Of a DNA stretch of 55,212 bases, positions 168-55,212 are shown one piece after another. Both the position numbers and the translations under genes were made by a program. Each line of letters opens with the position of its first letter. Position 1 is the stretch's first letter. The DNA lies in the IMG/VR virus record IMGVR_UViG_3300030376_003857, positions 1 through 55,212 of that record; one strand, given 5' to 3'. The notes beneath the pieces are model-generated. The model saw only the letters and a list, made by a program, of their open reading frames with translations, had not been told where the DNA came from and made no database searches. This stretch comes from a virus. Taxonomy: Duplodnaviria; Caudoviricetes.

Positions 168-183
168 GTGTCTTCGAAGACAC
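168..183. repeat. 16-bp palindrome GTGTCTTCGAAGACAC (same locus as 55127)
   Basis: exact palindrome, 15 nt upstream of the early-gene ATG at 152. Confidence 0.97.
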
Positions 184-184
184 G

Positions 185-388
185 TTATCTGTTTTTAATA
201 TCTATGTATTCGCTTTGCTCCCTTAGGTACAAATCAATCATTTCTTTTAGCTTGCTCAGTTCGTTGTTAAACGTTACTTGAGGTGGAGAAGGATAAGCAG
301 AATTCTTATGCGCTTTCCATTCTCTTACAGCCATGTATTCGCCGTTTACGTACTCTATGTTATAAGTCTTGTAACGTGTAGTATTCAT
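185..388 (-). CDS. Small early hypothetical protein (67 aa, MNTTRYKTYNIEY...), present only in the left-end allele
   Basis: ATG 388-386 after an A-rich leader; the ORF almost exactly fills the 204-nt allele-specific segment. Confidence 0.7.
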   Translation of the reverse strand: MNTTRYKTYNIEYVNGEYMAVREWKAHKNSAYPSPPQVTFNNELSKLKEMIDLYLREQSEYIDIKNR

Positions 389-507
389 AGTGTATGTTTT
401 AATTGTGAATCCTTTAACGGGATTCAATCGGTTTTGTTACCTGTATTTCGTTTGCATCCTTAAGGTTGATGCCTTTCCTAGCTAAATTTGACTGCTAAAT
501 GACTGAA

Positions 508-520
508 AATCAGCACTTTA
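508..520 (+). promoter_or_regulatory. IHF-consensus-like site AATCAGCACTTTA
   Basis: matches WATCARNNNNTTR; lies in the long non-coding control region. Confidence 0.35.
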
Positions 521-798
521 GGTCTTACATTTGGGCTCTCATTCCGTTGAATGATGGTGCAATATGCGTACAATTCTTCGTTCTCGCAAGTTTTAGAGAG
601 TTTTTTTCATGTTTTTTTTATGGGGACAGGTTTTAAGCCTAGCTTGAATCCTTGTGGCGCAGTCTTTACGGAAGTTTTTAAGACCAAAACGAATGTACTA
701 GGCATGACCAACACCCCCTTTGCAGTAATTGAACCGCGCGTGCGGGATACTATATAGGGGAGCGACATGGTTCTACCGTATGCACGCATACCTTTCCT

Positions 799-876
799 AG
801 GTAACACAATCGAATGCCGAACGTGTAAATAGATGCCATCGCAATATTACGATGGTAAACAGGTAACACAATCGAA
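799..876 (+). repeat. 16-bp direct repeat AGGTAACACAATCGAA (799-814, 861-876)
   Basis: two identical copies; a 13/15 inverted copy at 428-442. Confidence 0.85.
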
Positions 877-996
877 CGACGGAACGACGGACGAATTGAT
901 ACACGACGAACGACGAACGACGGACGACGAACGACGGACGGTGAACAGATGAGAGGTGGTGACGGTGACGGTGACGGACGGACGGACGGACGGACG
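872..996 (+). repeat. Low-complexity tandem tract of ACGACGR / GTGACG / GACG units
   Basis: directly visible, e.g. acgacgaacgacgaacgacggacgacgaacgacggacg and gacggacggacggacggacggacg. Confidence 0.9.
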
Positions 997-1133
997 ATAG
1001 CCCCAAAAAAAAGCCAAAAAAATGCGACGGGGGTTTCAAATTGTTACCCCCCCTCCCCCAAAAAAAAATGGTTTCCATTCTTGGCGGTATTGCGCTAGGC
1101 TGCAATATAACCCAAACAGTCAAAAAAACTAAC

Positions 1134-1141
1134 TATCTTTG
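1134..1141 (+). promoter_or_regulatory. Bacteroidetes sigma70 -7 box TATCTTTG (start of late block)
   Basis: TAnnTTTG consensus, intergenic, upstream of ATG 1169. Confidence 0.7.
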
Positions 1142-1168
1142 AATACAACAACAACAAAACAAAAGGTT

Positions 1169-1267
1169 ATGAAAAAGAAGAAGATGAATAAGTATGCCTG
1201 TGGAACTAGCGGGAAAAAAACTGAGAACAAAAGCTGTAAAGGCAACTTAAAAAAGTGTAAGTATTAA
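1169..1267 (+). CDS. Small Lys/Cys-rich peptide (32 aa)
   Basis: ATG after an A-rich leader and promoter; MKKKKMNKYACGTSGKK... Confidence 0.45.
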   Translation: MKKKKMNKYACGTSGKKTENKSCKGNLKKCKY

Positions 1268-1272
1268 TAGGG

Positions 1273-1557
1273 ATGGCATCAAAGAAAGATTTCAGATTAG
1301 CTAAAGCTGGTGTATCAGGTTATAACAAGCCAAAGAAGACCCCTAACCATGCAACTAAGTCACATGTAGTTGTAGCGAAAAAGGGTGACAAGGTGAAGTT
1401 AATTAGATTTGGTCAGCAGGGTGTAAGTGGTGCGGGAAAGAATCCTAAGTCTGCTAAAGATAAAGCTAGGAAGAAATCCTTTAAGGCTAGACACAAAGAG
1501 AACATCGATAAGGGGATGCTGTATCCTGCTTATTGGGCTGACAAAATTAAATGGTAG
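1273..1557 (+). CDS. Small basic conserved phage protein
   Basis: K-rich; motifs KLIRFGQQG, FKARH and AYWADKIKW resemble a widespread small viral protein family. Confidence 0.75.
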   Translation: MASKKDFRLAKAGVSGYNKPKKTPNHATKSHVVVAKKGDKVKLIRFGQQGVSGAGKNPKSAKDKARKKSFKARHKENIDKGMLYPAYWADKIKW

Positions 1558-1590
1558 CGTGATATGATGTTTTAGTGATTAAAAAAAATT

Positions 1591-2194: not shown

Positions 2195-2227
2195 AGCTTT
2201 TTTAGTTGTTTGTTGTGTAAAAAGTTG

Positions 2228-2255: not shown

Positions 2256-3836
2256 ATGACAGAAATCGGGTATTCACCTAAGAAACTTGAGTTTGATATC
2301 GAGGCTCAAAACAAGCTTGTAGACGGGGTAAGTAAAATTGGTCAAGCTGTGGGGAGCACACTTGGCTGGGCTGGTCAGACAGTTCTTATTGAGAGTCCTC
2401 AGCACACACATGGGATTACGGTAACCAAGGACGGCGTCACTGTAGCTAAGGCTATTGAGCTTTTAGACCCTACTGAGAACCTTGCGGTTAAAATGATGCG
2501 GGAGGCTGCTGAGCGAACTGCCACCAACGCTGGTGACGGTACGACAACGAGCATTGTACTAGCCGAGGCTTTCGTCAAGGCTGGTGTTAATCACATCGGT
2601 TCGGGTTCAAAGACTCCTGTCTTCAGGGAGCTTGTTGAGAAGACGACTGAGGTTGTAAACTCTTTAAAGAATAAATCAAAGACCGTAACCAAGGGTAAGC
2701 TTAAAGATGTTGCTACCATATCAGCGAACAATGACAAGGAGCTGGGTAAGATTATCTCTAACGTTTACAAGGCTGTCGGCAAGAACGGTGTTGTTACCGT
2801 GGGGAAGTCACAGACTCATGAGACTTACTATGAGACAACAAGGGGCATTAAGATTGACCGAGGCTACTACAGTGAGCAGTTCATCAACGACCATCGCCGA
2901 GACGAGTGTGTCTTCGAAGACACTCACATCTTAGTATGCGACACTGAGATTTCAAGTGTTCTACAGATTGAGAAGGCTTTGAAGCCAATCATCTCTGAGG
3001 GGAAGCGTCTACTCATCATTGCTCCCTGTTCTAAGAATGTTATCAACACGTTCGCTGCGAATGTCATAAAGAACGGTGTAAAGATTTGTGTTATCCAGCC
3101 TCCATCATTTGGTTACAAGCAGCATGAGTTGATGCAAGATATTGCCTTGAGTGTTGGTGCGAAGTACTTTTCTGAGAAGACGGGTGACAATTTGAGCTTA
3201 ATTGAGTTCAGCGACTTGGGTCATGCATCTAAGGTTTCTATAGGTCGTGACTCATCCATCATAATCAAGGATGACAAGGGTGGCATCACTGACGAGGCTA
3301 TCAACGAGCGTGTTGTACAGCTTCGTGATGCTCGTGACGCAGCCAAAGAGAAGAGAGACCGAGACTTCATCTCACAGCGTATTGCTTCATTAACGGGTGG
3401 TGTTGGTGTCATCTATGCTGGGGGTAACACTGACCTTGAGCAGAAGGAGCTTTTTGACAGGATTGACGATGCGGTTTGTGCTGTACGTTCAGCCCTTGAG
3501 GAGGGTATTGTTGCTGGAGGTGGTATGGCGTTATACCGAGAGTCCTTGAAATTTATTGACGACAGCTCTGAGGCTGGTAAGATTATGCTAGAGGCTTTGA
3601 GAGCACCAGCTGAGCGTATATGGAGCAACGCTGAAGTGACGCCATCTTTTGACTCTGTAGATGATGATGAGTTTGGATATGACGTGAAAAGCAGGGAGTA
3701 TGTTAATATGTTTGATAGCGGTATCATTGACCCAGCGAAGGTGACGAGAAGCGCACTACAGAATGCTGTCAGTGTAGCCATCAGCATTTTATCAACTAAC
3801 GCTGTAATCACGATGGCAAGAACGTATGAGCAATGA
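2256..3836 (+). CDS. groEL: Chaperonin GroEL (Cpn60)
   Basis: TKDGVTVAK, AGDGTTT, ATISANND and RIDDAVCAVRSALEEGIVAGGG motifs; 526 aa; no GGM tail. Confidence 0.97.
   Translation: MTEIGYSPKKLEFDIEAQNKLVDGVSKIGQAVGSTLGWAGQTVLIESPQHTHGITVTKDGVTVAKAIELLDPTENLAVKMMREAAERTATNAGDGTTTSIVLAEAFVKAGVNHIGSGSKTPVFRELVEKTTEVVNSLKNKSKTVTKGKLKDVATISANNDKELGKIISNVYKAVGKNGVVTVGKSQTHETYYETTRGIKIDRGYYSEQFINDHRRDECVFEDTHILVCDTEISSVLQIEKALKPIISEGKRLLIIAPCSKNVINTFAANVIKNGVKICVIQPPSFGYKQHELMQDIALSVGAKYFSEKTGDNLSLIEFSDLGHASKVSIGRDSSIIIKDDKGGITDEAINERVVQLRDARDAAKEKRDRDFISQRIASLTGGVGVIYAGGNTDLEQKELFDRIDDAVCAVRSALEEGIVAGGGMALYRESLKFIDDSSEAGKIMLEALRAPAERIWSNAEVTPSFDSVDDDEFGYDVKSREYVNMFDSGIIDPAKVTRSALQNAVSVAISILSTNAVITMARTYEQ
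2908..2923. repeat. 16-bp palindrome GTGTCTTCGAAGACAC inside groEL
   Basis: exact; encodes C-V-F-E-D-T. Confidence 0.97.
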
Positions 3837-4459
3837 TGAGTTCAGATGACCAAGACCAAACAAGAGCACTCATTGGTATATCGCTGGCGATAGGTCTAAT
3901 TATCTCTATGGTTTTATCATGCAACGGTCAATGCCCCACATTCTCTTTTGAAGGAACGTTTACTGACACTCAGTGTTATGATGACAGCTTAAGCGTATCT
4001 GACACGTTAGTATACGACTGTCCGTCATTCTATCACGGAGGAGGATTTATATACGAGTTTACGACAACGGGGTATTTCCCAGTATCAATTATTGTGGACT
4101 CTGACCTTTCGTACACATCATGCCCCGACTGTGATGTGTGGTGTCATGCGTTTATAATTGACGAGTGTGGGGGCAATACTTTGTGGAGTTCGGGGAGTAA
4201 CTACTGTTTTGGAGATTATGTATCGACCACAGCCCCGTCACAAGATTGGATTTTAGACATACAGCTAGAAGCTGGAACGTACTACCTAGTAATCGGCAAT
4301 GTTGGCACATATCAGACTAATCACGAGATAAATGGATGCTTCACATTGTATATAGGGGAATATCTTTTTTTAACAAACATCTTAGAGAATTCACCAAATG
4401 GATTAGTGGTTAGAAATAAATTAGGTACATTTGACCTCTTAGGAAGAAGAATAAAATAA
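3833..4459 (+). CDS. Putative exported/lipo-protein, Cys-rich, T9SS-CTD-like tail
   Basis: hydrophobic N-terminus ending VLSC-NG-QC; C-terminal FDLLGRRIK. Confidence 0.6.
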   Translation: MMSSDDQDQTRALIGISLAIGLIISMVLSCNGQCPTFSFEGTFTDTQCYDDSLSVSDTLVYDCPSFYHGGGFIYEFTTTGYFPVSIIVDSDLSYTSCPDCDVWCHAFIIDECGGNTLWSSGSNYCFGDYVSTTAPSQDWILDIQLEAGTYYLVIGNVGTYQTNHEINGCFTLYIGEYLFLTNILENSPNGLVVRNKLGTFDLLGRRIK

Positions 4460-4462
4460 ACC

Positions 4463-4684
4463 TTGGGCTGCAATCAGCTCAGGCACGTTCACGAAAGATT
4501 AGATGGTCTTGTGACAAAAAAGAAGTGGATTGATTTCAGTAAGTCTCAACCTCCTCTAAATCAAGTAGTTGAGATTGTTGATGTAGATAGGTGCAGACAT
4601 GAGATGCAGTTTACTAGAGACGGATGGATTGACACAAAGTTTGGGAATAGATATAATTTTAATTTTGTAAAATACTGGAGATGA
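4463..4684 (+). CDS. Hypothetical protein
   Basis: fills the gap before groES, ATGA overlap; WIDFSKSQPP...YWR pattern. Confidence 0.5.
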   Translation: MGCNQLRHVHERLDGLVTKKKWIDFSKSQPPLNQVVEIVDVDRCRHEMQFTRDGWIDTKFGNRYNFNFVKYWR

Positions 4685-11285: not shown

Positions 11286-13515
11286 TATTGAGCTTTACAA
11301 AGTTCTTGATGACTACATCCCTAAGAGTGTATTGACATCTAAAAACAAAGCAAGAACTTGGGAGTATGGCTATGACAAAAAATATGATGTTGTAGTAATA
11401 TCAAAAGATGGTACTATTGGTGAGGTGTATGATATTCAGGGTCTCATTGTAGCTCTTCCAAAATACAGCAAGGAGTGTCTTCGAAGACACGCAAAAAAAG
11501 AGGAGCAGTATTGGGAGAGAGGGGAACTTCCAAAAGAGCTTAGCAGGATACATTCAATATTCCAATGGAACGAAAAAAGTGATGAGTTCAAAGCTAAGTA
11601 TGTCGACTATATAGAACGTGAGTTTGACCGAAGAGAAAATGGTGTGTGGTTCAAGAACAATGGCATTAACACATACATTACTGGGTCACACTATATGTAT
11701 ATCCAATGGTCTTCTATCGATGTCGGATATCCTGATTTCCGAGAGGCTAACAGAATCTTGTACCTTCATTGGGAAGGGTGTAAGGCTGATGACAGGAGCT
11801 ACGGAGATTGTTATCTAAAGATTCGTCGTTCAGGATTCTCTTTCATGTCCTCGTCTGAGGTTGTCAACGTTGGTACGTTGGCTAGAAACTCTAGGGTTGG
11901 CATCTTATCAAAAACTGGTGCTGACGCAAAGAAGATGTTTACCGACAAGGTAGTTCCAATAAATAGTAAGTTACCTTTCTTTTTCAAGCCTATAATGGAC
12001 GGTATGGATAAGCCAAAGACAGAGCTTGCATACAGAGTTCCAGCTTCTAAAATTACAAGAAGAAACATGTCTCTATCAGAGGCTGAGGAGTTTGATGGGT
12101 TAGACACAACAATCGACTGGAAGAACACCGATGACAACTCTTACGATAGTGAGAAGTTGATTCTATTAGCTCATGACGAGAGTGGGAAGTGGTTAAAACC
12201 AAACAGCATTATAAACAACTGGCGTGTTACTAAAACATGTCTTCGACTTGGTAAAAAGGTTGTGGGTAAATGCATGATGGGAAGCACATCTAATGCCCTT
12301 AACAAAGGAGGTAACAACTTTAAAAAGCTTTACTATGATTCAAAGATTGACACTAGGAATAAGAATGGTCAAACAAAAAGCGGTCTATATGGTATATTCA
12401 TTCCGATGGAATGGAACATGGAGGGTTTCATTGACAGATATGGTATGCCTGTATTTAAAACTCCAGAGTCTCCAGTACTCGGTATTGACGGTGAGCTTAT
12501 ACATGAGGGGGCTATTGACTATTGGGAGGCAGAGGTTGAGTCAAAGAAAAACGACCCTGATGCGTTAAACGAGCACTACAGACAGTTTCCAAGGACTGAG
12601 TCGCATGCGTTTAGAGATGAGAGCAAACAATCAATATTCAACCTCACGAAAATATATCAGCAGGTAGACTATAATGATTCGTTAATTATTGAACGCCATA
12701 TTACTAGAGGCGGTTTTCACTGGAAGAATGGAGTAATAGATTCGACAGTTGTGTTTAGCCCAGATGAAAGAGGTAGGTTTCTTGTTAGTTGGATTCCGAA
12801 CGCAAAACTACAGAATCGTCAAATAAATAGGGGTGGAAATAAAGTACCAGCAAATGACCATCTTGGTGCTTTCGGTTGCGATTCTTACGATATCTCAGGT
12901 GTTGTTGGAGGTGGAGGTTCTAATGGTGCTCTTCACGGGTTGACGATGTACAACATGGATGATGCCCCAAGTAACGAATTCTTTTTAGAGTACATAGCAA
13001 GACCTCAGACGGCAGAAATATTCTACGAGGATGTTCTTATGGCTTGCGTTTTTTACGGGATGCCAATACTAGCGGAGAACAATAAACCAAGGCTTCTTTA
13101 TCACTTCAAGAATAGAGGTTATAGGGGGTACTCAATGAACCGACCAGATAAGTCATTTAATAAACTATCCAAGACTGAAAAGGAAATAGGTGGAATACCT
13201 AACACATCTGAAGACATTAAACAGGCTCACGCATCCGCAATCGAGTCTTATGTCGAGAAGTACGTTGGTTTTGATACGACTGGGACATATAGAAATCCAG
13301 ACGATATGGGTAGTATGATTTTTAATAAAACCCTTCAAGATTGGGCTAAGTTTGATATATCTAACAGAACTAAGTATGATGCGTCAATTAGTTCTGGATT
13401 AGCTATAATGGCTTGTCAAAAGCATATCTACAAGCCAATAACAAAGGCTAACAAAATAAACATTAACTTTGCTAGGTATAATAATAAAGGGGCAACAAGC
13501 GAGATTATTCGATGA
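11263..13515 (+). CDS. Terminase large subunit
   Basis: KIRRSGFS Walker-A-like, LAHDESGK Walker B, MGST, FGCDSYD nuclease motif, AENNKP; upstream of portal. Confidence 0.9.
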   Translation: MQKEEQNSIELYKVLDDYIPKSVLTSKNKARTWEYGYDKKYDVVVISKDGTIGEVYDIQGLIVALPKYSKECLRRHAKKEEQYWERGELPKELSRIHSIFQWNEKSDEFKAKYVDYIEREFDRRENGVWFKNNGINTYITGSHYMYIQWSSIDVGYPDFREANRILYLHWEGCKADDRSYGDCYLKIRRSGFSFMSSSEVVNVGTLARNSRVGILSKTGADAKKMFTDKVVPINSKLPFFFKPIMDGMDKPKTELAYRVPASKITRRNMSLSEAEEFDGLDTTIDWKNTDDNSYDSEKLILLAHDESGKWLKPNSIINNWRVTKTCLRLGKKVVGKCMMGSTSNALNKGGNNFKKLYYDSKIDTRNKNGQTKSGLYGIFIPMEWNMEGFIDRYGMPVFKTPESPVLGIDGELIHEGAIDYWEAEVESKKNDPDALNEHYRQFPRTESHAFRDESKQSIFNLTKIYQQVDYNDSLIIERHITRGGFHWKNGVIDSTVVFSPDERGRFLVSWIPNAKLQNRQINRGGNKVPANDHLGAFGCDSYDISGVVGGGGSNGALHGLTMYNMDDAPSNEFFLEYIARPQTAEIFYEDVLMACVFYGMPILAENNKPRLLYHFKNRGYRGYSMNRPDKSFNKLSKTEKEIGGIPNTSEDIKQAHASAIESYVEKYVGFDTTGTYRNPDDMGSMIFNKTLQDWAKFDISNRTKYDASISSGLAIMACQKHIYKPITKANKININFARYNNKGATSEIIR
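11475..11490. repeat. 16-bp palindrome GTGTCTTCGAAGACAC inside terminase gene
   Basis: exact; encodes C-L-R-R-H. Confidence 0.97.
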
Positions 13516-18584: not shown

Positions 18585-18619
18585 AAAAGGGAGTGTCTTC
18601 GAGGACACTCCCTTATTTT
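18585..18619 (+). terminator. Terminator hairpin built around palindrome variant GTGTCTTCGAGGACAC (18593-18608)
   Basis: AAGGGAGTGTC-TTCGAG-GACACTCCCTT followed by ATTTT. Confidence 0.75.
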
Positions 18620-39350: not shown

Positions 39351-39721
39351 TATCCTCGAAGACACTTTATACATTCCTGCCTGTCATATCTAATCATTAA
39401 CTCTTCTGAGCCATAATTATTTTTTGACACATAAACGCTTCCTTTTAGCTTCATTACCTTAGAGAAAACTATTCCATCATTAAAGCCCCATATCAGTATG
39501 GGGCTTAATCTTTTGTCTTGAAGTTTTGATACCAACGTGAGTGTAACATCTAGAGGTGTGTCTTCGAGGACACTACCGCTGTCGGGTATGACCACACCAA
39601 CGAACGCTATTGTTGCACCCTTATTATTGAAAAGAATGTAGTCAACATCTCCGTATCCAAGTTTTTTATACGATAAAGAAAATTCAGAGCAGAACCTTTT
39701 GATAGCAGCATCCTTTGACAT
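39347..39721 (-). CDS. Hypothetical protein, possibly degenerate PD-(D/E)XK-like
   Basis: GDVDYILF...AFVGV pattern; last gene of the leftward block. Confidence 0.6.
   Translation of the reverse strand: MSKDAAIKRFCSEFSLSYKKLGYGDVDYILFNNKGATIAFVGVVIPDSGSVLEDTPLDVTLTLVSKLQDKRLSPILIWGFNDGIVFSKVMKLKGSVYVSKNNYGSEELMIRYDRQECIKCLRGY
39350..39365 (-). repeat. Palindrome variant with one mismatch (GTATCCTCGAAGACAC) at the convergence of the two transcription blocks
   Basis: 15/16 match to GTGTCCTCGAAGACAC. Confidence 0.85.
39558..39573 (+). repeat. Palindrome variant GTGTCTTCGAGGACAC
   Basis: exact variant; encodes V-L-E-D-T on the minus strand. Confidence 0.95.
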
Positions 39722-41819: not shown

Positions 41820-43300
41820 TCTATTTTATGGTCTCGTTTAAAATGTCTTGTTGTGTAGCTCTTCTTTCCGTTCACAGCTTTATAGATATCCTTCTCAATA
41901 CCTCCTCTTGAAAAGAGCCAGTAAACGTCTGACTCAAGTCTCTCCTTCGTTGTCATCCTCTCCTTAGACTGCCAATAGCTCGTAGCACTAAAGTCAATGT
42001 TGTAGTATACGATAACGTTAGCGTTCTTGAGAGATATCCCCTCCCTACCTTCAAGTATCTGAAGGGCAATTATCGGGCAGTCGGTATCATTGAAGACACT
42101 CAACTCCTTCGTTATCTTGTCATCACCAAACACCTTCTTTAACGCATTCAACTCCTCGGAAAACTTATAGAACACACCAATCTTCATCCCGCCGAAGTTG
42201 TCTTTTATGAAGTTTGCCTTGGTGTAGTCAAGCACCTTTGAGTTTCCTGACTCAAATTTAATAGTTCCAGAGTAAATCTGATGCAGTTTCATCATTAATT
42301 TTACTGGTGTATCGGCAAGAATAACCTCCTCCTTTCCTTCGATAACCAAATCTCTCTTAAGTCTGTTGGCTAGTTTATAGGTAGAGTCCTCCATGTCAAT
42401 CTCTATGACGTGCTCCTTTGTTTTTACGGTGAACCCTGCCTCCTTTTGTGTGTAGCTAATCATGTATGGATTCATAACCTCAATGATTGACTCCATACCA
42501 TCAGAGTAGTCGTTTGAAATCATCCCGTTAATCTTCCTCTGTTTAACGTTGACGTACTTATCGCAGAACCTATAGAAGTTCTTGAACTCCTTAAATGGAT
42601 TAGTCGACACCCCGTATACTTGATGGTACATTTGAGAGTATGACTCAGGTGTTGGTGTTCCTGATAGGTATATCACAAGAGCACCTGACCTAGCTAATAT
42701 CTCCTTCACGTCCTTGGCTCTTTTACTTGGCTTAGGAAATGCGCCCATACCATGTGCTTCGTCCAACACAACAAGGTCAAAACCTTCTACGTTGTCTACC
42801 TTGTGAAGGCTTTCGTAGTTGATAACAACTATATTGAAGTTCGGATTAAGCATATCGTAATCACTCTCGATACTACTTATAGCCTTCTTTTTTGTAACAA
42901 ACAAGACATTGTTTACTAGGAGCTCCTGAGCTATACCTAGGCTAGTTAGGGTCTTACCTGTCCTAACCTCCATAGCTAGGTAGACGAACCCATGCTTTCT
43001 AATAATATCTGAACCCCTATTAATTATGTCGGTCTGATAATCTCTAAATGTTACACCTCCTTTCATTTTCTCTTTGTAATACTCGACACTTCTATCGATG
43101 ATGTCTACTGTTTCTTTTGATACATTATGCTTAAGTACTTCCCTTCTCAATATGTTTTTACCTCTCCCTATTTTTTTTATCTCTGTCATCTTCACAACTG
43201 ATTGTATCGTACACATATTCTTGTACATCAGTTTGTTTGATAATGATGACTCCTTAGCATAAACAGTGCCGTTTGGAGTCTCTATTGTTTCAGGTTTCAT
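41816..43300 (-). CDS. SF2 (SNF2-like) helicase
   Basis: FRDYQ, MEVRTGKT, LDEAH, LSGTP, EGISL and QSKER motifs. Confidence 0.9.
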   Translation of the reverse strand: MKPETIETPNGTVYAKESSLSNKLMYKNMCTIQSVVKMTEIKKIGRGKNILRREVLKHNVSKETVDIIDRSVEYYKEKMKGGVTFRDYQTDIINRGSDIIRKHGFVYLAMEVRTGKTLTSLGIAQELLVNNVLFVTKKKAISSIESDYDMLNPNFNIVVINYESLHKVDNVEGFDLVVLDEAHGMGAFPKPSKRAKDVKEILARSGALVIYLSGTPTPESYSQMYHQVYGVSTNPFKEFKNFYRFCDKYVNVKQRKINGMISNDYSDGMESIIEVMNPYMISYTQKEAGFTVKTKEHVIEIDMEDSTYKLANRLKRDLVIEGKEEVILADTPVKLMMKLHQIYSGTIKFESGNSKVLDYTKANFIKDNFGGMKIGVFYKFSEELNALKKVFGDDKITKELSVFNDTDCPIIALQILEGREGISLKNANVIVYYNIDFSATSYWQSKERMTTKERLESDVYWLFSRGGIEKDIYKAVNGKKSYTTRHFKRDHKIE

Positions 43301-43516: not shown

Positions 43517-45931
43517 TCATAATAGTTTAGTTTGTGTTTCGAGTTCATGCTTATATCTAATTCTCATCCAACGTCCTTTTGGGTCTCTACCTTCTTCTGG
43601 TTGGACACCAGTTGTGTACACTGCATAAGCCACTAGCCACTTATAAAACCGCATCATACTGATGGTCATCTTGGCTTTAGGTGCGTAGTCAGGATACTCT
43701 TCAATAAACTCCATATACAACTCCTTCTTCATGACCTTCTTTCCTAACTCTAGGTGAGGATTATTGACAGAGCCGTCAATAAGACCACACCATTCAACAA
43801 AGTCATGACACGTCTCAGCTGAGAGCTGTCTAACTTTAAGGTTCACGAACTTAGACTTTACAAGACCCGTTGACAAGTATCCTTGAAGACACTTTATCAT
43901 ATAGTTATCAAAGAAGCACCAATCCTCATCGTTCCAATCAGCGAAGAAGTGCTTACCAAACTCATCAAGCGGTGTGAAATCCTTGTTGTAGTGCTGATGA
44001 AGCTCAACCTCCCACTTTCTCCTTGCAAATGAGCTACCAGTCCCCTTGATGGCGTAGTTTGTCGTTATGGCTATCTTAGGAGACTTCTCGAAAGGTATTT
44101 TAATAGCGTCCCTGTTCTTCTTCTCAAGCGTAAGACCCTCGGTAACAACCGAGAATAAACGCTCAAAGTCAAAAGCTTTTTTCACGTCATCAAAACACAG
44201 TACTTGAGTGTCCGCCGAAACCGTTTGGTATGGGAACGACTTCTCAAAAGCAAACGCCTTGCCGTCAATCACCACAAGCTTCTTCATCTGAGATAAAGCG
44301 TTCATAAACAATCCCTTTCCAGTACCTCCCTCAGGGTTATCACTAATAACCTCGTCGTTAAGTATCACAGCTGGGCAGTATGACAAGTTCTTATATCCAT
44401 GCATCATAAAGCCAATGGTACTCTCCATCGTCTTTGTTCGACTCTCATCATCACCACAAATCCTTGATATGAAAGTCTTATAAACGCATTCATCCGACTC
44501 CGACTGGCTAAACTTCCTATCAATAACATGGTCTTTCCATACATATCCACCCAAGTCTAGGTAGTCAATCGTCTTAATAGACGTCTTGGTTATCTTGACC
44601 GCACAGTTTCTATAGTACAAGTATGACTCGTTGGCACTATCCTCGATGAAGTAGATATCAATTGTTGATAGCAATGACAAGAACTCTTCTCTGAAGAATC
44701 GAACGCTGTCAGCGAAGTAATTATATATTGTTGAGTCGTCCATCTCAATAAGGTGGTTTAGGACGAAATCTTTTATCTCCTTGTCTGAAGTGTGGTCAAT
44801 CAAGTTGTTGGTTACTCGGACAAAAACATAGCTCTTACCTCCTTCGGGGCAGTACTTATAGAACCCGTTATCCTCCAAGAACTTCTTGAATAGGATGTGA
44901 ACAATCTTGATGACACCCTTCTCGCTCTTCTCCCAAAACGTCTGCATGGTGTTCTCGTTTTCAACCCTATCAAGTACAGCGTCAATAACTTGGTCGCTTA
45001 GAGATGTCCCTTCAAGTTGACCTCGTACCTCTCTTCTACTTACACCTCGCTTAATCTTGACTCGAACCTGATTTATTCTCTCCTCGTCCTCGTAATACTT
45101 TGTTCCGAAGTTCTGCTTCTGAGAATACGCAGAGTCAATTGTTCGTGATATCTCCGCAATGGTAAAGTCTTCAGTAGCGTATTGATTAAGTACGTATCCA
45201 GCTAGTGACTTGTTCACACCGTAGTCGTTTAAGGCAGCGGCTAGAATAAATACGTTGTGGTTTCTCTGCCCCTCAACCATCGGGTACTTCTTGTTCCACC
45301 ACTTTATAAGAATATCTACAATCTTTTTCTCGTCGCTGATAGGTATGGTTGGTGGGTCTTTATGCTTTGTAACCTCCTTGTACTCAGGCTCTTCAATCTT
45401 TTCCCATAGAGATGAGTTCTCGTTGATGTAAATCATCGGGTCAAATGACTCGTAGCAAACACGGGAAACATTTCTACTGGTCTTGTCGAAGTTAGGTGAG
45501 TCAAAGTGAGTCTTCAGAGAGTTGAAGTAGTTTACATGGTTATCAACGTCCGCTGGTATCTTTACCAAAACCTTCAGCCCCTTTCCTGACGGTGAAACGA
45601 AAACAGACATCACGAACTTATCTTTCGAGAAACGCTCCTTATCACTAAGCATGTCCTTCTTCTTCTCATATCCATCGAAATCAAGACAGATGATTCCACT
45701 GTGCTTAATTATTGACGAGTCACTACGTCTGTTGAACTCACCACTAAAACATATTGAAGGTAGACCCTTCTTTAGTTCAGACCTTGCCTCCTTATCGTTC
45801 TGCTCTCTGATTCTTAAAACCAAATCCTTAGTTGCCCCATCCTTAATTCTATTAAGGACGACCATTACGTCACGGTAGAATGGTGTCTCTGTATCGTGTA
45901 TGTCTTTAAATATTGTGACGGTTTGTGTCAT
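43517..45931 (-). CDS. Primase-helicase (VirE-N/BT4734-like N-terminus, PriCT, SF3 helicase)
   Basis: SGIICLDFD, SPSGKGLK, EGQRNH, GGTGKG Walker A, CFDD, ITTN. Confidence 0.88.
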   Translation of the reverse strand: MTQTVTIFKDIHDTETPFYRDVMVVLNRIKDGATKDLVLRIREQNDKEARSELKKGLPSICFSGEFNRRSDSSIIKHSGIICLDFDGYEKKKDMLSDKERFSKDKFVMSVFVSPSGKGLKVLVKIPADVDNHVNYFNSLKTHFDSPNFDKTSRNVSRVCYESFDPMIYINENSSLWEKIEEPEYKEVTKHKDPPTIPISDEKKIVDILIKWWNKKYPMVEGQRNHNVFILAAALNDYGVNKSLAGYVLNQYATEDFTIAEISRTIDSAYSQKQNFGTKYYEDEERINQVRVKIKRGVSRREVRGQLEGTSLSDQVIDAVLDRVENENTMQTFWEKSEKGVIKIVHILFKKFLEDNGFYKYCPEGGKSYVFVRVTNNLIDHTSDKEIKDFVLNHLIEMDDSTIYNYFADSVRFFREEFLSLLSTIDIYFIEDSANESYLYYRNCAVKITKTSIKTIDYLDLGGYVWKDHVIDRKFSQSESDECVYKTFISRICGDDESRTKTMESTIGFMMHGYKNLSYCPAVILNDEVISDNPEGGTGKGLFMNALSQMKKLVVIDGKAFAFEKSFPYQTVSADTQVLCFDDVKKAFDFERLFSVVTEGLTLEKKNRDAIKIPFEKSPKIAITTNYAIKGTGSSFARRKWEVELHQHYNKDFTPLDEFGKHFFADWNDEDWCFFDNYMIKCLQGYLSTGLVKSKFVNLKVRQLSAETCHDFVEWCGLIDGSVNNPHLELGKKVMKKELYMEFIEEYPDYAPKAKMTISMMRFYKWLVAYAVYTTGVQPEEGRDPKGRWMRIRYKHELETQTKLL

Positions 45932-46364: not shown

Positions 46365-46397
46365 AAAAAAAAAGGGAGTGTCTTCGAGGACACTCCC
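46365..46397 (-). terminator. Terminator hairpin built around palindrome variant (46378-46393)
   Basis: GGGAGTGTC...GACACTCCC followed by T9 on the minus strand, just after the SSB stop. Confidence 0.85.
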
Positions 46398-46412
46398 CCT
46401 TGTTGTGTTTAA

Positions 46413-49710: not shown

Positions 49711-49908
49711 ATCTGTTTTATTTAATTGATTCGTTTATTTTTATGTCTTTAGAATATGTACGGTGCTTTACTAGCTAGCATTATGCCAGTAGCTATACCG
49801 ATGATTGTTATTAGCGTGAGGATGCACCCCATCCACATACCTCTATGCTCTGATTTCTGTCTCAGGTGGTTTACTATATCGACTTGAGACTCTGTAAACT
49901 GTGACTTA

Positions 49909-50328
49909 TTAATCATATCTCCTCTTTAACTCATGAACATAATCAGCTCCGTATTTGCTTAACCCTTCGGTATTCCAAAAATTATTGTCATCATGAAGGG
50001 ATTGAATGTCTACCCAAAAACCAACCTCATGACCTCTCACATCCTTAATAAATGCTGAGTCAAGACTTTCAAAACCTCTAGCTTTAAGATGAACATCAAG
50101 ACCTCTAACGTCACCTAAACATTTAGCTGATTTTTTTAAGGCTTCATCCGTTAGAAACATACCAACTGCACACTTTTTATCATCGTTAGTTAGATACATA
50201 CAAGTACGGAATGGGAAACGCCTCTCAGCTCTCTTGTCAATATTGTATGACTTAGCTACAATGTCGATTATTTCATGCTTTGTTTTCTCAAGTGTCTTCG
50301 AGGACACTTTAGTATTGATTGCTTTCAT
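49909..50328 (-). CDS. Early hypothetical protein
   Basis: CMY...KCAVG...IQSLHD motif. Confidence 0.7.
   Translation of the reverse strand: MKAINTKVSSKTLEKTKHEIIDIVAKSYNIDKRAERRFPFRTCMYLTNDDKKCAVGMFLTDEALKKSAKCLGDVRGLDVHLKARGFESLDSAFIKDVRGHEVGFWVDIQSLHDDNNFWNTEGLSKYGADYVHELKRRYD
50292..50307 (+). repeat. Palindrome variant GTGTCTTCGAGGACAC near the 5' end of 49909..50328
   Basis: exact variant, extended by AA/TT; encodes V-S-S-K-T on the minus strand. Confidence 0.95.
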
Positions 50329-52402: not shown

Positions 52403-52418
52403 GTGTCTTCGAAGACAC
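52403..52418. repeat. 16-bp palindrome GTGTCTTCGAAGACAC, 17 nt upstream of ATG 52385
   Basis: exact. Confidence 0.97.
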
Positions 52419-53249: not shown

Positions 53250-53512
53250 ATCTTTATTAGTTTTTGCATTCTTGCTTCAACTTCCATAGTTGTATCGTCA
53301 GTTAGTTCATATATGTCACGAGTTTTGAAGAATTTTGGTAATGCTTCGTTTGCGTATGAACCAATGTAAGCTGTTCCCATACAATAAAACAATGTGTAAC
53401 TCTTGTCATCAGCTGTCAGTCTAATTGATAACATCCTATCGTGTTCAGTTGATGCAAATGTCTCTTTAGCTTTAGCTTTAGCTAATTCAAATATTTTTTT
53501 CGAAGGTTTCAT
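53246..53512 (-). CDS. Early hypothetical protein (MKPSKK N-terminus)
   Basis: ATG at 53512 shares its 5' sequence with the neighbouring gene. Confidence 0.65.
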   Translation of the reverse strand: MKPSKKIFELAKAKAKETFASTEHDRMLSIRLTADDKSYTLFYCMGTAYIGSYANEALPKFFKTRDIYELTDDTTMEVEARMQKLIKI

Positions 53513-53753
53513 AATAATCATGGTCTAGGTCATTTATATCAAATAGTGTAGTACATAATGCGTTTTGCAATCCCTTTTCAAATGCTAATGGTTCTTTATT
53601 ACATGATTGTCTATGAGCATCTGCTCTTTGTTTAGATTTCTCTATATCATCTTGAATACGAGTTATTAGCTCTTGCTTGAATTTCTCATACATATCGTAG
53701 GTAGAAATTCTTTTCGCTTTATCTAATTTTAATGCTTTTTTTGAAGGTTTCAT
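53487..53753 (-). CDS. Early hypothetical protein (MKPSKK N-terminus)
   Basis: ORF track; shared N-terminus. Confidence 0.65.
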   Translation of the reverse strand: MKPSKKALKLDKAKRISTYDMYEKFKQELITRIQDDIEKSKQRADAHRQSCNKEPLAFEKGLQNALCTTLFDINDLDHDYYETFEKNI

Positions 53754-53755
53754 AA

Positions 53756-53899
53756 TTAATGTCTATTACAAGGTTTATAACCACGTTTTGCAAGTTTTGC
53801 ATTACGCTTACTATGGGCTTTGTAGTCATACCCACGATGCTGTGTTGAACAACTACCTAAGAATAAGGTAGCTATGCTTAGTATCAATAGTTTTCTCAT
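53756..53899 (-). CDS. Small lipoprotein (47 aa; not in ORF track)
   Basis: MRKLLILSIATLFLGS-C lipobox, basic mature part. Confidence 0.7.
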   Translation of the reverse strand: MRKLLILSIATLFLGSCSTQHRGYDYKAHSKRNAKLAKRGYKPCNRH

Positions 53900-54015
53900 T
53901 ATCCAAAGTGATTCCAAATGAATATTGCGATGTAAGAAATTCCCATAAGTACAAGGAACACCATCAATGAATCTGAACCATGTTGGTCTACGTCTGTTTT
54001 TTTTCTGCGTTTCAT
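53899..54015 (-). CDS. Small single-TM membrane protein (38 aa; not in ORF track)
   Basis: MKRRKKTD...LMVFLVLMGISYIAIFIW; TAATG coupling to the lipoprotein gene. Confidence 0.6.
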   Translation of the reverse strand: MKRRKKTDVDQHGSDSLMVFLVLMGISYIAIFIWNHFG

Positions 54016-54038
54016 AATTACTTGCTTTGTTTTGTTTT

Positions 54039-54054
54039 GTGTCTTCGAAGACAC
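54039..54054. repeat. 16-bp palindrome GTGTCTTCGAAGACAC, 23 nt upstream of ATG 54015
   Basis: exact, intergenic. Confidence 0.97.
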
Positions 54055-54061
54055 TTTTTTT

Positions 54062-54109
54062 TAGTGGGTGCTTAGGACTCGAACCTAAATTGACCGTCTC
54101 GCACCCTAC
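54062..54109 (-). ncRNA. tRNA-like minihelix (acceptor-like stem plus T-arm only)
   Basis: GGGTGC-gagacggtcaat-TTAGG-TTCGAGT-CCTAA-GCACCC-A. Confidence 0.5.
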
Positions 54110-54112
54110 AAC

Positions 54113-54295
54113 CTATAGGTTGTCAATAATCTCCTCCGCTTTCAGTCTAGCGTAAGTCAATCTCTGAATATACGTACCCATCTTTTGGGGTGAAGGAAGA
54201 CCAACTGTGAAGTCTTCCGTTTTATACTCGCTTTGCTTCCTCATAATCGCTCCCGCAATCATTCCGATATGGTATCTCTTTGTTCTCTGATTCAT
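54113..54295 (-). CDS. Early hypothetical protein
   Basis: 60-aa ORF, ATGA-coupled to the upstream ORF. Confidence 0.55.
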   Translation of the reverse strand: MNQRTKRYHIGMIAGAIMRKQSEYKTEDFTVGLPSPQKMGTYIQRLTYARLKAEEIIDNL

Positions 54296-54450
54296 GTCGT
54301 TTTACTTTTTAGTTCTTCAAAATTTTGTACGATTATTTCGCATATCTCCCATAGCACTTCCTGTGAGTACCCATCTAAGTAGGTAAGGATATCTTGCTGT
54401 GTTTGTTCTTTGGTCTCGTTCATGACCTTATATAGCTCTCTCTTTGTCAT
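54292..54450 (-). CDS. Small early hypothetical protein (52 aa; not in ORF track)
   Basis: MTKRELYKVMNETKEQTQQDILTYLDG...; starts right after the 54452 stop. Confidence 0.55.
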   Translation of the reverse strand: MTKRELYKVMNETKEQTQQDILTYLDGYSQEVLWEICEIIVQNFEELKSKTT

Positions 54451-54451
54451 A

Positions 54452-55111
54452 TTACATCTGTGTTACAAGTACTTGTAGTAGCTCAATTGCCTTTAGGATA
54501 TCATCCTTATCACTTTTGGTATGGATGACAAGGTCATCTTCAATCGTTAAGTTAACCTTCTCAAGGTCTGCGTATTTATCCTCCTTCATCATCTGCGCTC
54601 CTTTGAACACAAACGAGAATATGGTCTGGGACTTATTCGAATCTTTACCTTCGCCGTCACCTTCGCCGTCGGTCTCGTCTTCAATTTTGTCAAGTATATC
54701 GGAAGACGTCATTCCATCTTCAACTTCTCCGACAGCCTTGGCAAATTTCAATAGCTCCGCAATCGATAGCTTCTCAGCGTTTGCTCGGAATGTATCTAGC
54801 ACAATCTCTTCAACAGCGTTAGCCTTTATCAATTTGTATGCGTATGACTTCTGCATACCGAATGCCTTGTTGATGAATGTCTCCTTGTTCCAATCTAGTC
54901 CACTGTCCTCTAGTCTAGCCTTCGCCGCATCACTACTGAACCATTCAACTCCTTCGCTGACAATTTGCGCTAGTTCTAAGGATGTGTTGAACCTTTTTTC
55001 TGTTGCGCTCTGAACGGTAGCTTTCAATTTGTCTAGCTTAGTTAACTTCAGTGCTCTCTTTACGCTTGCATCATTCAAGAATGCCTGTTCTACTGTTTCT
55101 GTGTTACTCAT
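54452..55111 (-). CDS. First early gene; putative HTH DNA-binding protein
   Basis: W..ETFINKAFGMQKSYAYKLIKA resembles an HTH recognition helix; acidic linker; palindrome in its leader. Confidence 0.65.
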   Translation of the reverse strand: MSNTETVEQAFLNDASVKRALKLTKLDKLKATVQSATEKRFNTSLELAQIVSEGVEWFSSDAAKARLEDSGLDWNKETFINKAFGMQKSYAYKLIKANAVEEIVLDTFRANAEKLSIAELLKFAKAVGEVEDGMTSSDILDKIEDETDGEGDGEGKDSNKSQTIFSFVFKGAQMMKEDKYADLEKVNLTIEDDLVIHTKSDKDDILKAIELLQVLVTQM

Positions 55112-55212
55112 AATTACTTGTTTTATGTGTCTTCGAAGACACGTTATATATTTATGTTTTAATTGTGAATCCTTTAACGGGATTCAATCGGTTTTGTTAC
55201 CTGTATTTCGTT
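54960..55212. repeat. Right copy of terminal overlap
   Basis: aligns with 1-188 and 393-452. Confidence 0.95.
55127..55142. repeat. 16-bp palindrome GTGTCTTCGAAGACAC, 15 nt upstream of ATG 55111
   Basis: exact. Confidence 0.97.

What the first reader, a model, noticed from the sequence alone, without database searches (positions are those of the whole stretch)
168..55142. Genome-wide 16-bp palindrome GTGTC(T/C)TCGA(A/G)GACAC: candidate undescribed phage DNA-site system
Seen: perfect GTGTCTTCGAAGACAC at 168, 2908, 11475, 52403, 54039 and 55127 (168 and 55127 are one locus). The single-asymmetry variant GTGTCTTCGAGGACAC occurs at 18593, 31501, 39558, 46378 and 50292, and reversed at 34515. A 1-mismatch copy lies at 39350. 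Chance expectation for the three exact words is about 3x55212/4^16, or ~4e-5 copies. Copies sit inside essential genes (groEL, terminase, giant virion protein) in all three frames (VFEDT, CLRRH, VSSKT), so they are not a protein motif. The asymmetric variant occurs both ways relative to transcription (U.G versus C.A in the RNA stem), which argues for a dsDNA site rather than an RNA hairpin. Perfect copies lie in the circular arc 52-55 kb/0-11.5 kb and variants in 18-50 kb; spacing tightens toward the early end. Established analogues are dispersed sites such as parS, Noc boxes, matS and mycobacteriophage L5/Bxb1 stoperators; the sequence does not match the consensus I know for parS, Noc boxes or matS. 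Inference: a dimeric protein coats, silences, organises or protects the whole genome via these sites, in a phage with no recognisable integrase or CI repressor.
Basis: partly seen in the sequence, partly recalled or inferred. Interest (0 to 1): 0.92.

Follow-up and report, generated by a model that had tools for sequence, protein, structure and literature searches.

The report
Phage operator palindrome with candidate reader
A marine phage lineage keeps one 16-base mirror-symmetric DNA word at about 10 to 19 places per genome, mostly just ahead of its early genes, and always alongside one uncharacterised paired DNA-binding-type protein that probably reads it.

Summary
There are 12 exact GTGTCYTCGARGACAC copies at the stated places, against 0 in shuffles. 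They make 11 loci, because the record's two ends are overlapping alleles. The real unit is GTGTC-N6-GACAC: the arms never vary, the centre does.

Relatives at 45-75% protein identity keep the word, partly at the same places inside groEL, terminase and helicase.

A 219-aa first early gene (54452-55111, minus strand) tracks it. All 80 loci fetched through that protein carry 2-11 sites. Twenty sister phage records sharing the capsid gene have neither protein nor site. An unrelated 36.7-kb phage has both.

The protein has no Pfam or PHROG family. Its model weakly resembles the KorB/ParB DNA-binding domain, and it passes a homodimer prediction (0.74 against 0.00 for controls).

Best reading (about 0.5): operator or roadblock sites of this dimer, controlling early genes. 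Binding is not shown. A hairpin reading survives because two copies cap terminator hairpins.

This is a new variant of a known kind (KorB operators, stoperators). The scan has noted dispersed phage palindromes of this kind on other DNA.

The parts
54452..55111 (-). p219: 219-aa first early gene, candidate reader of the palindrome. Helical N-domain with helix-turn-helix (about residues 76-98), acidic disordered linker 131-159, small beta/alpha C-domain 163-218.
   Evidence: No Pfam or PHROG family. AF2 model has mean pLDDT 82.5. Weak KorB/ParB/Noc DNA-binding-domain matches. Homodimer prediction scored 0.74 against 0.00 for the best control. Co-occurs with the site.
55127..55142 (.). Perfect site 15 nt upstream of the p219 ATG (55111). 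Same locus as 168-183, the other allele.
168..183 (.). Perfect site, allele of 55127. It lies 1 nt after the stop of a small minus-strand ORF (185-388) and 15 nt before the duplicated p219 start (152).
1..452 (.). Left end of the record, overlapping the right end (54960-55212) as a second allele: 9 mismatches and a 204-nt indel (189-392).
2908..2923 (.). Perfect site inside groEL (codons C-V-F-E-D-T). Same place in relative G005 (3535).
11475..11490 (.). Perfect site inside the 5' part of the terminase large subunit gene (E-C-L-R-R-H). Same place in G005 (12081) and G004 (34044).
18589..18612 (+). Site 18593-18608 extended by GGGA/TCCC and followed by TTATTTT. A terminator-like hairpin after the major capsid-type gene, with the site at its tip.
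   Evidence: RNA fold -20.2 kcal/mol. Sister phages have ordinary terminators at this place.
31501..31516 (.). Site inside the 2907-aa virion protein gene (V-F-E-D-T frame).
34515..34530 (.). Site inside the 2907-aa gene, with the asymmetric centre in the opposite orientation (V-S-S-K-T frame).
39350..39365 (.). Degenerate copy (GTATCC...) at the overlapping stops where the plus and minus gene blocks meet head-on.
39558..39573 (.). Site 208 nt beyond the giant gene's stop, inside minus ORF 39347-39721. G003 (23309) and G004 (6253) have a site at the same convergent junction.
42084..42099 (.). Degenerate copy (3 mismatches) inside the helicase gene, at the place where G003, G004 and G005 keep a GTGTC-N6-GACAC site (S-V-F-E-D-T).
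43877..43892 (.). Degenerate copy (3 mismatches) inside the primase-helicase gene.
46370..46401 (-). Site 46378-46393 extended by GGGGGA/TCCC and followed by a run of nine T on the minus strand. Terminator-like hairpin after ORF 46413-46715.
   Evidence: RNA fold -19.8 kcal/mol.
50292..50307 (.). Site within the first codons of ORF 49909-50328, or 14 nt upstream of an alternative ATG.
52403..52418 (.). Perfect site 17 nt upstream of a minus-strand ATG (52385).
54039..54054 (.). Perfect site 23 nt upstream of a minus-strand ATG (54015), flanked by A/T runs.

Best explanation
The 16-mers are duplex-DNA binding sites of the form GTGTC-N6-GACAC, that is, two 5-bp half-sites one helical turn apart.

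Shown:
- The site family, its conservation and its positions.
- Its strict co-occurrence with this protein.

Inferred:
- The protein binds the sites.
- It represses its own gene through the site 15 nt before its ATG.
- It gates or shuts off the early genes by sitting in the short gaps between them, 14-23 nt before each ATG, as operator and/or elongation roadblock.
- The few sites in the late half act as extra barriers or regulated terminators. These are the tip of the terminator after the capsid gene, the head-on junction of the two gene blocks, and the sites inside groEL, terminase, helicase and the giant gene.

It works like KorB with its twelve operators on plasmid RK2, but without a ParB CTPase domain. 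It also works like the mycobacteriophage stoperators, but with a symmetric site and a dimer.
For: 1. Anatomy.
- The two arms occur only at a spacing of 6: 12 copies at N6 against 0-1 at each other spacing from 0 to 12.
- In about 1.03 Mb of related phage DNA, the left arm plus centre is followed by GACAC 456 times, GATAC 4 times and 12 singletons. The arms therefore never co-vary.
- The centre does vary. TTCAAA/TTTGAA occurs 317 times, TTTAAA 42, CTTGAA 31 and TTCGAA 22.

2. Selection on the DNA.
- 5 copies were seen in ten coding sequences, against 0.06 per synonymous shuffle.
- The sites in groEL, terminase and helicase lie at the same places in relatives of 45-75% protein identity and 35-47% GC.
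- Sister phages without the word encode other residues at those places, with no length change in groEL and helicase.

3. Reader candidate.
- 80 of 80 loci fetched through p219 homologues (25-43% identity) hold 2-11 sites.
- 0 of 20 capsid-gene relatives have the site and 0 of 20 have p219. Five of these records are at least 90% complete. Three of them share terminase at 69-73% and capsid at 61-68% with the window.
- The unrelated 36.7-kb phage G001 shares only p219 and a primase-like segment with the window, and has 13 sites at up to 1 mismatch, or 14 counted as GTGTC-N6-GACAC.
- Of 17 early or clade-specific ORFs tested, only p219 is in all four motif-bearing genomes compared (including G001) and in none of the three motif-free ones.

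4. Fold.
- VIA-align gives KorB DNA-binding domain with operator 1r71 at Z 6.1 (rmsd 3.1, 93 residues), Spo0J 1vz0 at Z 5.5 and KorB 8qa8 at Z 5.5.
- The top Foldseek rows are P1 ParB-DNA, KorB and Noc, all at E 0.09-3.6.
- Atlas structure rows are ParB_N-containing and ParB/RepB/Spo0J clusters at TM 0.58-0.59.

5. Dimer.
- The homodimer score is 0.74 against a best control of 0.00. Agreement between runs is at least 72% and partner pLDDT at least 73.
- The mark was reached by 20 of 30 solved homo-pairs and 1 of 23 single chains in the tool's calibration.
- The interface uses residues 7-72 and 162-219 and leaves most of the helix-turn-helix free (only 82-84 touch).

6. Co-variation (n = 2).
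- The two phages whose sites have centre GTTAAC (MW202828, 14 of 14 sites; G026) both carry L-S-K in place of the aromatic-or-Met plus Q/K/D/T/E plus K of the other 20 sequences.
- Both also carry Q or R in place of the aromatic residue of the predicted recognition helix.
Against: - No call shows binding.
- All fold matches are middling (Z under 8, Foldseek E above 0.09), the range the tool itself calls common for helical proteins. A non-ParB chain (CHD1 C-terminal domain, 2n39) ties for first place at Z 6.1.
- The co-occurrence counts are not independent. They reduce to about two or three lineages: 95 G000-like loci, 4 G001-like and 4 unclear, of 103.
- Two ORFs (39347-39721 and 46413-46715) also separate the motif-bearing from the motif-free sister phages. 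They are excluded only because BLAST does not find them in G001.
- Two copies (18593, 46378) are the tips of -20 kcal/mol terminator-like hairpins. Sister phages have ordinary GC hairpin plus T-run terminators at the first of these places. That is what an RNA-level element would look like.
- One operator would suffice to repress an operon. Why nearly every early gene has its own site is not explained, and no host-type promoter box is enriched beside the sites (41 of 199 against 36 of 199 in the mirror control).
- G026 has p219 but only 4 sites.
Confidence: 0.5

Rival explanations
1. The element works as a hairpin in RNA (or in extruded single-stranded DNA). It would be a sequence-specific intercistronic signal in long early transcripts, read by a phage factor for termination, antitermination, processing or mRNA stability. 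p219 would be either that factor or irrelevant.
For: - Copies 18593 and 46378 form -20.2 and -19.8 kcal/mol hairpins with T-runs.
- Flanks co-vary to extend the stem after the capsid gene in three phages: GGGA/TCCC, GGA/TCC and GGGGG/CCCC.
- Motif-free sister phages have ordinary terminators at that same place.
- Stem extensions of 3 bp or more occur in 19 of 241 unique instances, above the roughly 1 in 64 expected by chance.
- Most early sites lie in very short gaps between a stop and the next ATG, with no enriched promoter box.
Against: - The bare 16-mer folds at only -5.6 kcal/mol, or -4.5 with the C.A variant.
- 137 of 241 instances have no stem extension.
- The arms never show compensatory change across more than 450 instances. 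No other arm pair is repeated more than 3 times in any of the 80 p219 loci, against 2-11 copies for GTGTC, tied only at 3 by TTTTT in two loci.
- In the window, the asymmetric centre gives U.G in 2 transcribed copies and C.A in 4, including the 46378 terminator.
- Copies lie inside genes on either strand.
- The co-occurring protein has a DNA-binding-type fold.
Confidence: 0.2
2. The word is a promoter or activator box for phage-specific transcription. It would be read either by an injected virion RNA polymerase in the giant protein (N4-like hairpin promoters), or by p219 acting as an activator that brings host RNA polymerase to each early gene (like T4 MotA boxes).
For: - One copy stands before most early ORFs at a preferred distance. 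164 of 254 oriented instances have the ATG 14-23 nt downstream.
- The 16-mer is the only strongly conserved element there; beyond it only the first and third downstream bases are weakly preferred (T 0.61, C 0.45).
- No host -7 box is enriched.
- The window encodes a 2907-aa virion protein with no family.
Against: - Giant proteins of 3368-3702 aa are present in 3 of 3 motif-free sister phages, and none of 1000 aa or more is present in motif-bearing G001. The word therefore does not track the giant protein.
- A perfect palindrome gives no direction.
- Copies occur inside late genes, at terminator tips and at a convergent junction.
- An activator that needs its own site 15 nt before its own ATG cannot start itself.
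- The N4 promoter definition (5-7 bp stem, 3-nt loop) is recalled, not tested.
Confidence: 0.15
3. The copies are a mobile or recombination-promoting mini-element (REP/MITE-like, or like the promoter-stem-loop cassettes of T4-type phages) that shuffles early gene cassettes.
For: - The early region is in flux. A 204-nt gene-sized indel begins 5 nt from the site at 168.
- Strain contigs show cassette-sized skips at 49403-49726, 53515-53892 and 54309-54451.
Against: - None of the three strain-level junctions listed lies at a site copy.
- In-gene sites arose by substitution, not insertion: groEL and helicase align without a gap at the site in motif-free relatives.
- Sites are positionally conserved across distant relatives.
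- No transposase or HUH nuclease was seen among the 43 ORFs scanned.
Confidence: 0.05

Closest known systems
KorB and its OB operators on IncP plasmid RK2
   Same: - About a dozen copies of one short palindrome lie on a ~55-60 kb replicon, conserved in sequence and position in distant relatives. [quoted passage not shown]
- The sites lie from next to promoters to far from any.
- The best structural match of p219 is the KorB DNA-binding domain on its operator (1r71, Z 6.1).
   Different: - p219 has no ParB/Srx CTPase N-domain: no ParBc hit in 20 of 20 members.
- No ParA partner or KorA-like clamp-locker was found among 43 scanned ORFs.
- The replicon is an apparently lytic phage.
- The site is 5-N6-5 with a free centre, not the 13-bp OB word (OB oligo seen in PMC11790492).
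- Sliding-clamp silencing is therefore unlikely.
Stoperators and operators of cluster A mycobacteriophages (L5 gp71, TipsytheTRex repressor)
   Same: - Many copies of one short word lie across a phage genome, in promoters and in short intergenic gaps, and are proposed to stop both initiation and elongation (PMC9283540, passages read).
- The system is specific to a phage clade.
   Different: - Those sites are asymmetric 13-mers bound by a monomer with two domains. Their orientation follows transcription and is required for function.
- Here the site is a palindrome and the protein a predicted dimer.
- Those phages are temperate and the protein is the immunity repressor. Here no integrase was seen.
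Intrinsic (rho-independent) terminators
   Same: Copies 18593 and 46378 are GC-rich extended stem-loops followed by T-runs. They lie after a capsid-type gene and after ORF 46413-46715.
   Different: - The other 9 unique exact loci lack stem extensions on the transcribed strand.
- Terminators do not share an invariant 5+5 bp sequence across phages of 45-75% protein identity.
Dispersed centromere sites of phage-plasmid N15 (SopB/sopC) and P1 ParB boxes
   Same: A ParB-type helix-turn-helix protein reads inverted repeats scattered in a phage genome. P1 ParB-DNA complexes are the top Foldseek rows (2ntz and 1zx4, E 0.09-0.7).
   Different: - The N15 comparison is recalled. My search returned only listings that mention it in passing.
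- Those systems serve plasmid partition with a ParA ATPase. None was found here, and the phage shows no plasmid or lysogeny genes among the ORFs scanned.

Membership tests
ParB/KorB (ParB-CTPase) family | N-terminal ParB/Srx CTP-binding domain (Pfam ParBc, PF02195) | tested here: not met
   No ParBc hit at E up to 1 in any of the 20 aligned family members or in the window protein. The region before the helix-turn-helix is about 70 residues of helices.
ParB/KorB (ParB-CTPase) family | ParB/KorB-type helix-turn-helix DNA-binding domain | tested here: inconclusive
   VIA-align gives 1r71 at Z 6.1, 1vz0 at Z 5.5, 8qa8 at Z 5.5, 6s6h at Z 4.6 and 3vwb at Z 4.3. Foldseek E is 0.09-3.6. Atlas TM is 0.58-0.59 to ParB-named clusters. 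The profile against PDB sequences finds nothing relevant. The hits recur but all scores are middling.
ParB/KorB (ParB-CTPase) family | Partner ParA-type ATPase encoded nearby | tested here: not met
   None among the 43 ORFs scanned with PHROGs and/or Pfam. The remaining ORFs were not scanned.
ParB/KorB (ParB-CTPase) family | Short palindromic sites, several per replicon | tested here: met
   11 unique exact loci in the window and 10-19 in relatives.
Cluster A mycobacteriophage stoperator system | Asymmetric 13-bp site read by a monomer, with orientation tied to transcription (PMC9283540) | tested here: not met
   The site is a 5-N6-5 inverted repeat and the protein passes a homodimer prediction.
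Cluster A mycobacteriophage stoperator system | Many copies in promoters and short intergenic gaps across the genome | tested here: met
   164 of 254 oriented instances lie 14-23 nt before an ATG.
Intrinsic terminators | Stable GC-rich stem-loop directly followed by a U-tract on the transcribed strand | tested here: inconclusive
   Met by 2 of 11 unique loci, 18593 and 46378. Not met by the others: the bare hairpin is -5.6 kcal/mol with A-rich downstream flanks.
N4-type virion RNA polymerase hairpin promoters | Co-occurrence with a giant virion RNA polymerase | tested here: not met
   Giant ORFs are in 3 of 3 motif-free sister phages and absent from motif-bearing G001. The giant protein has no Pfam or PDB sequence match. 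Whether it is a polymerase was not tested by fold.
REP/MITE-like mobile palindromes | Insertion polymorphism: the element present or absent with a matching length change | tested here: not met
   The groEL and helicase sites align without a gap to motif-free relatives. The three strain-level junctions listed do not fall at the sites (which shows only part of its rows).

The most novel reading that the evidence does not exclude
p219 and its sites form a portable, self-contained timing module for lytic phages of marine Bacteroidota. One small dimer without a CTPase domain, made from the first early gene, sits on 10-19 identical sites and switches the whole early programme off. It also turns DNA-encoded terminator tips into protein-controlled gates: the site at the apex of the capsid-gene terminator and the site at the head-on junction of the two gene blocks. 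The module has moved between unrelated phage backbones, and the new genome then evolved the sites by point substitution, even inside groEL, terminase and helicase.
Probability: 0.15. Interest if true: 0.75.

Novelty: new variant of a known kind. Interest (0 to 1): 0.6.

Why it matters
If p219 binds these sites, a large and so far uncultured group of marine phages has a simple, testable global switch for early genes, built from a protein family with no annotation. The group comprises hundreds of IMG/VR and metagenome records in at least 8 studies, with relatives infecting Flavobacteriia such as Maribacter.

It would give a KorB-like 'one protein, a dozen sites' regulon in a lytic virus without the ParB CTPase. 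It would also give a clean example of DNA sites imposed on essential coding sequences and held there over long divergence.

Practically, the 16-mer is a one-line marker for this phage lineage in metagenomes. The protein-site pair could serve as an orthogonal repressor/operator part for Bacteroidota.

Tried and rejected
- Literal motif in print. A full-text search for the 16-mer found 2 papers, both on mammalian cell biology and unrelated to phages; listings only. I saw nothing on this site in phages. The Panino paper (PMC11590407) was seen only as a listing. Supplements are closed and may hold repeat tables I could not see.
- Host chromosomes. 116 of the 120 fetched stretches hold a single GTGTC-N6-GACAC copy, in many phyla, about what chance gives in 596 Gb. 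Three stretches hold 2 copies. The only array is a 56,458-bp contig binned with a Cytophagales MAG, which is a phage of this family.
- RNA evidence. No RNA holder was listed. The runs laid were DNA contigs only and cannot show transcript ends. Its difference table showed 40 of 399 rows, so I could not compare SNP density inside and outside the sites.
- Known RNA families. 0 Rfam matches at gathering score and 0 tRNAs.
- Sigma-70-type promoter scan. 28 found against 32.4 expected, so uninformative.
- Bacteroidetes-type -7 box (pattern recalled). 41 of 199 against 36 of 199 in the mirror control.
- p219 homologue search in 5.8 billion proteins. 117 hits, none with a Pfam domain or an informative name.
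- Sequence searches against PDB. Nothing relevant.
- 'Each relative has its own private palindrome'. Rejected for this family. Three complete sister phages have no over-represented palindrome. The p219 clade keeps the same arms everywhere, with only a changed centre in MW202828, G025 and G026.
- A strand-asymmetry test of centre variants (DNA against RNA reading) was abandoned. The genome's strong GC and AT skew along transcription confounds it.
- G025 (a 56% fragment) has 4 sites and no p219. I treat this as uninformative, because the sites sit at the contig end.

Full report
OBSERVATION

The window is a whole IMG/VR virus record of 55,212 bp, which CheckV rates 100% complete. Three weaker copies lie at 39350, 42084 and 43877.

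The half-word GTGTCTTC occurs 13 times forward and 10 times reverse. By my count, all but two of these belong to full or degenerate sites. The two arms occur only at a spacing of 6: 12 at N6 against 0-1 at every other spacing from 0 to 12.

With the protein sequences held fixed, synonymous-codon shuffles of ten large genes gave 18 copies in 300 shuffles, against 5 observed.

The record's ends overlap as two alleles. Bases 1-194 match 54960-55153 with 9 mismatches, and 55153-55212 is identical to 393-452.

THE UNIT AND ITS SPREAD

Five records I checked in full hold 10-18 copies each at up to one mismatch, with 0 for the reversed control pattern.

G003, G004 and G005 are relatives of the window at 45-75% protein identity and 35-47% GC. 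G001 (36.7 kb) shares only two proteins with it.

Across about 1.03 Mb of these loci, the left arm plus centre is followed by GACAC 456 times, GATAC 4 times and 12 singletons. In loci chosen through the protein rather than the motif, the commonest centre is TTCAAA/TTTGAA (317), then TTTAAA (42), CTTGAA (31) and TTCGAA (22).

The element is therefore GTGTC-N6-GACAC with invariant arms, an A/T-rich variable centre, and a weak preference for a...t outside it. GenBank MW202828.1 (circular, 60,850 bp) has 14 copies, all GTGTCGTTAACGACAC.

WHERE THE SITES LIE

In the window, 6 of the 11 loci lie outside long ORFs or at their first codons:
- 15, 17, 23 and 14 nt before minus-strand ATGs (55127/168, 52403, 54039, 50292);
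- after the capsid-type gene (18593) and after ORF 46413-46715 (46378).

In G003, G004 and MW202828 most early genes have one copy in a very short gap: stop codon, 3-31 nt, site, 14-23 nt, ATG. Of 254 oriented instances, 164 have the ATG 14-23 nt downstream. No other position outside the 16-mer is strongly conserved. A Bacteroidetes-type -7 box is not enriched (41 against 36 of 199).

In-gene sites are positionally conserved:
- groEL: window 2908 = G005 3535;
- terminase: window 11475 = G005 12081 = G004 34044;
- helicase: G003 25704 = G004 10470 = G005 45556 = the decayed copy at window 42084.

In each case the synonymous flanks differ.

SISTER PHAGES WITHOUT THE WORD

Twenty records related through the capsid gene have 0 sites. 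They comprise Maribacter phage Panino and 19 IMG/VR records, five of them at least 90% complete. G013, G014 and G016 share terminase at 69-73%, portal at 60-65% and capsid at 61-68% with the window. They have no repeated palindrome of their own.

At the orthologous places they encode other residues, with no length change in groEL and helicase. groEL reads E-C-V-L-D-N-P-Y instead of E-C-V-F-E-D-T-H, and helicase reads D-K-F-D-N-E-D instead of S-V-F-E-D-T-D. The sites were therefore made by substitution and then held.

After the capsid gene these phages have ordinary GC hairpins with T-runs. In the motif clade the palindrome forms the tip of that hairpin.

THE CANDIDATE READER

The 219-aa ORF 54452-55111 (minus strand) has a site 15 nt before its ATG. 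It has homologues next to sites in 23 of the 112 motif stretches. It has no Pfam or PHROG family, and its 117 database homologues carry no Pfam domain or informative name.

Co-occurrence:
- All 80 loci fetched through an alignment of this protein hold 2-11 sites.
- None of the 20 motif-free relatives has it.
- Of 17 early or clade-specific ORFs, it alone is present in G001, G003, G004 and G005 and absent from G013, G014 and G016.
- These counts reduce to few independent lineages: 95 G000-like loci, 4 G001-like and 4 unclear.

Structure. The AF2 model (mean pLDDT 82.5) has a helical N-domain, an acidic disordered linker and a small beta/alpha C-domain. The conserved block F-G-x-Q-K-S-x-x-Y-K-L looks like a helix-turn-helix. 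Three searches point weakly to the DNA-binding domain of KorB, ParB and Noc:
- Foldseek E 0.09-3.6;
- VIA-align Z 6.1 for 1r71, 5.5 for 1vz0 and 8qa8, tied with an unrelated CHD1 domain at 6.1;
- Atlas TM 0.58-0.59 to ParB-named clusters.

Dimer. A homodimer prediction scored 0.74 against 0.00 for the best of three controls, with run agreement at least 72% and partner pLDDT at least 73. That mark was reached by 20 of 30 solved homo-pairs and 1 of 23 single chains in the tool's calibration. The interface covers residues 7-72 and 162-219 and leaves most of the helix-turn-helix free; only 82-84 touch. This supports pairing; it does not show it.

Co-variation. The two homologues from phages with the GTTAAC centre differ from all 20 others at two positions in and beside the predicted recognition helix (n = 2).

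MECHANISM

I commit to duplex-DNA operator or roadblock sites of a p219 dimer that controls the early genes and itself (0.5).

Half-sites 11 bp apart suit two helix-turn-helix units on one face of the helix; this rests on general knowledge of dimeric repressors. The few late-region sites would act as barriers or protein-controlled terminators. These are the terminator tip, the head-on junction at 39350/39558 (also seen in G003 and G004), and the sites in groEL, terminase, helicase and the giant gene. All of this is inference.

RIVALS

- Hairpin/RNA reading (0.2). It is kept alive by the two -20 kcal/mol terminator-like copies and the co-varying flanks. It is weakened by the weak bare hairpin (-5.6 kcal/mol), the lack of any stem covariation, and C.A variants in transcribed copies.
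- Promoter reading through an injected polymerase. This is disfavoured because giant proteins are present in 3 of 3 motif-free sisters and absent from G001. An activator version remains possible (0.15 together).
- Mobile or recombination element (0.05). This does not fit the substitution origin of the in-gene sites or the strain junctions listed.
- Assembly artefact. Excluded by the many independent records.

COMPARISON AND NOVELTY

The closest analogue is KorB: twelve OB palindromes on about 60 kb, conserved in sequence and position in R751 (PMC13768133, passages read; OB oligo in PMC11790492). p219 lacks the ParB CTPase domain and any ParA, so it works like KorB's static binding rather than being a member of that family.

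Cluster A stoperators share the dispersed intergenic logic, but they are asymmetric, monomer-bound and orientation-dependent (PMC9283540, passages read).

I found no paper with this 16-mer in a phage context. The scan has noted dispersed phage palindromes of this kind on other DNA.

I rate it a new variant of a known kind, with interest 0.6. Its value lies in the clean protein-site pairing, the sites forced into essential genes, and a directly testable regulator family in abundant marine phages.

Noticed in passing
window 1-452 and 54960-55212: The record's two ends are overlapping alleles of one locus. They differ by 9 mismatches over 194 nt and by a 204-nt indel (189-392, nearly a whole 67-aa minus-strand ORF) that begins 5 nt from the palindrome. 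The record is therefore circular or permuted, although IMG/VR labels it 'linear'.
   Followed up: yes
window 49403-49726, 53515-53892, 54309-54451: Contigs of related strains skip gene-sized pieces of the early region. 322 nt (ORF 49381-49710) is missing in 3 of 4 runs, with an 11-nt overlap at the joint. 376 nt is replaced by 7 letters in 4 of 4 runs. 141 nt is replaced by 12 letters in 2 of 4 runs. Short indels cluster in the A/T runs beside sites 54039 and 55127 but not inside them, in the rows shown.
   Followed up: partly
WTJX01000555.1 (loci L237, L284): A 56,458-bp contig binned in a Cytophagales MAG is a phage genome of this family (primase 68-72% and helicase 63% identical to the window's) with at least 5 site copies. 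This is a weak host hint, or a binning error.
   Followed up: partly
G001 (L117/L118): 13513-15338 plus strand and 22293-24118 minus strand: Two ORF pairs of identical sizes (148 + 464 aa, helicase-like) lie in inverted orientation in the 36.7-kb record. This may be an inverted duplication or an assembly fold-back.
   Followed up: no
G001/G002 early regions (L036 13348, L059 5958-6760): In the G001-type phages, many sites are directly preceded on the plus strand by a variable GC-rich hairpin and a T-rich run, for example a fold-back ending ...GCGTCCTT just before the site. This second layer is not seen in the window.
   Followed up: no
window 40813-41367 and 48549-48851 (minus strand): Two further small proteins give weak, sub-threshold matches to the DnaA C-terminal helix-turn-helix (E 6e-4 and 0.01). 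They are possible additional DNA binders. The first also has a homologue in motif-free G013.
   Followed up: partly
window 2256-4938: Phage groEL and groES are separated by a 208-aa ORF (3833-4459) with no Pfam or PHROG family. A second GroES-annotated PHROG hit lies at 10321-10890.
   Followed up: no
   Followed up: partly
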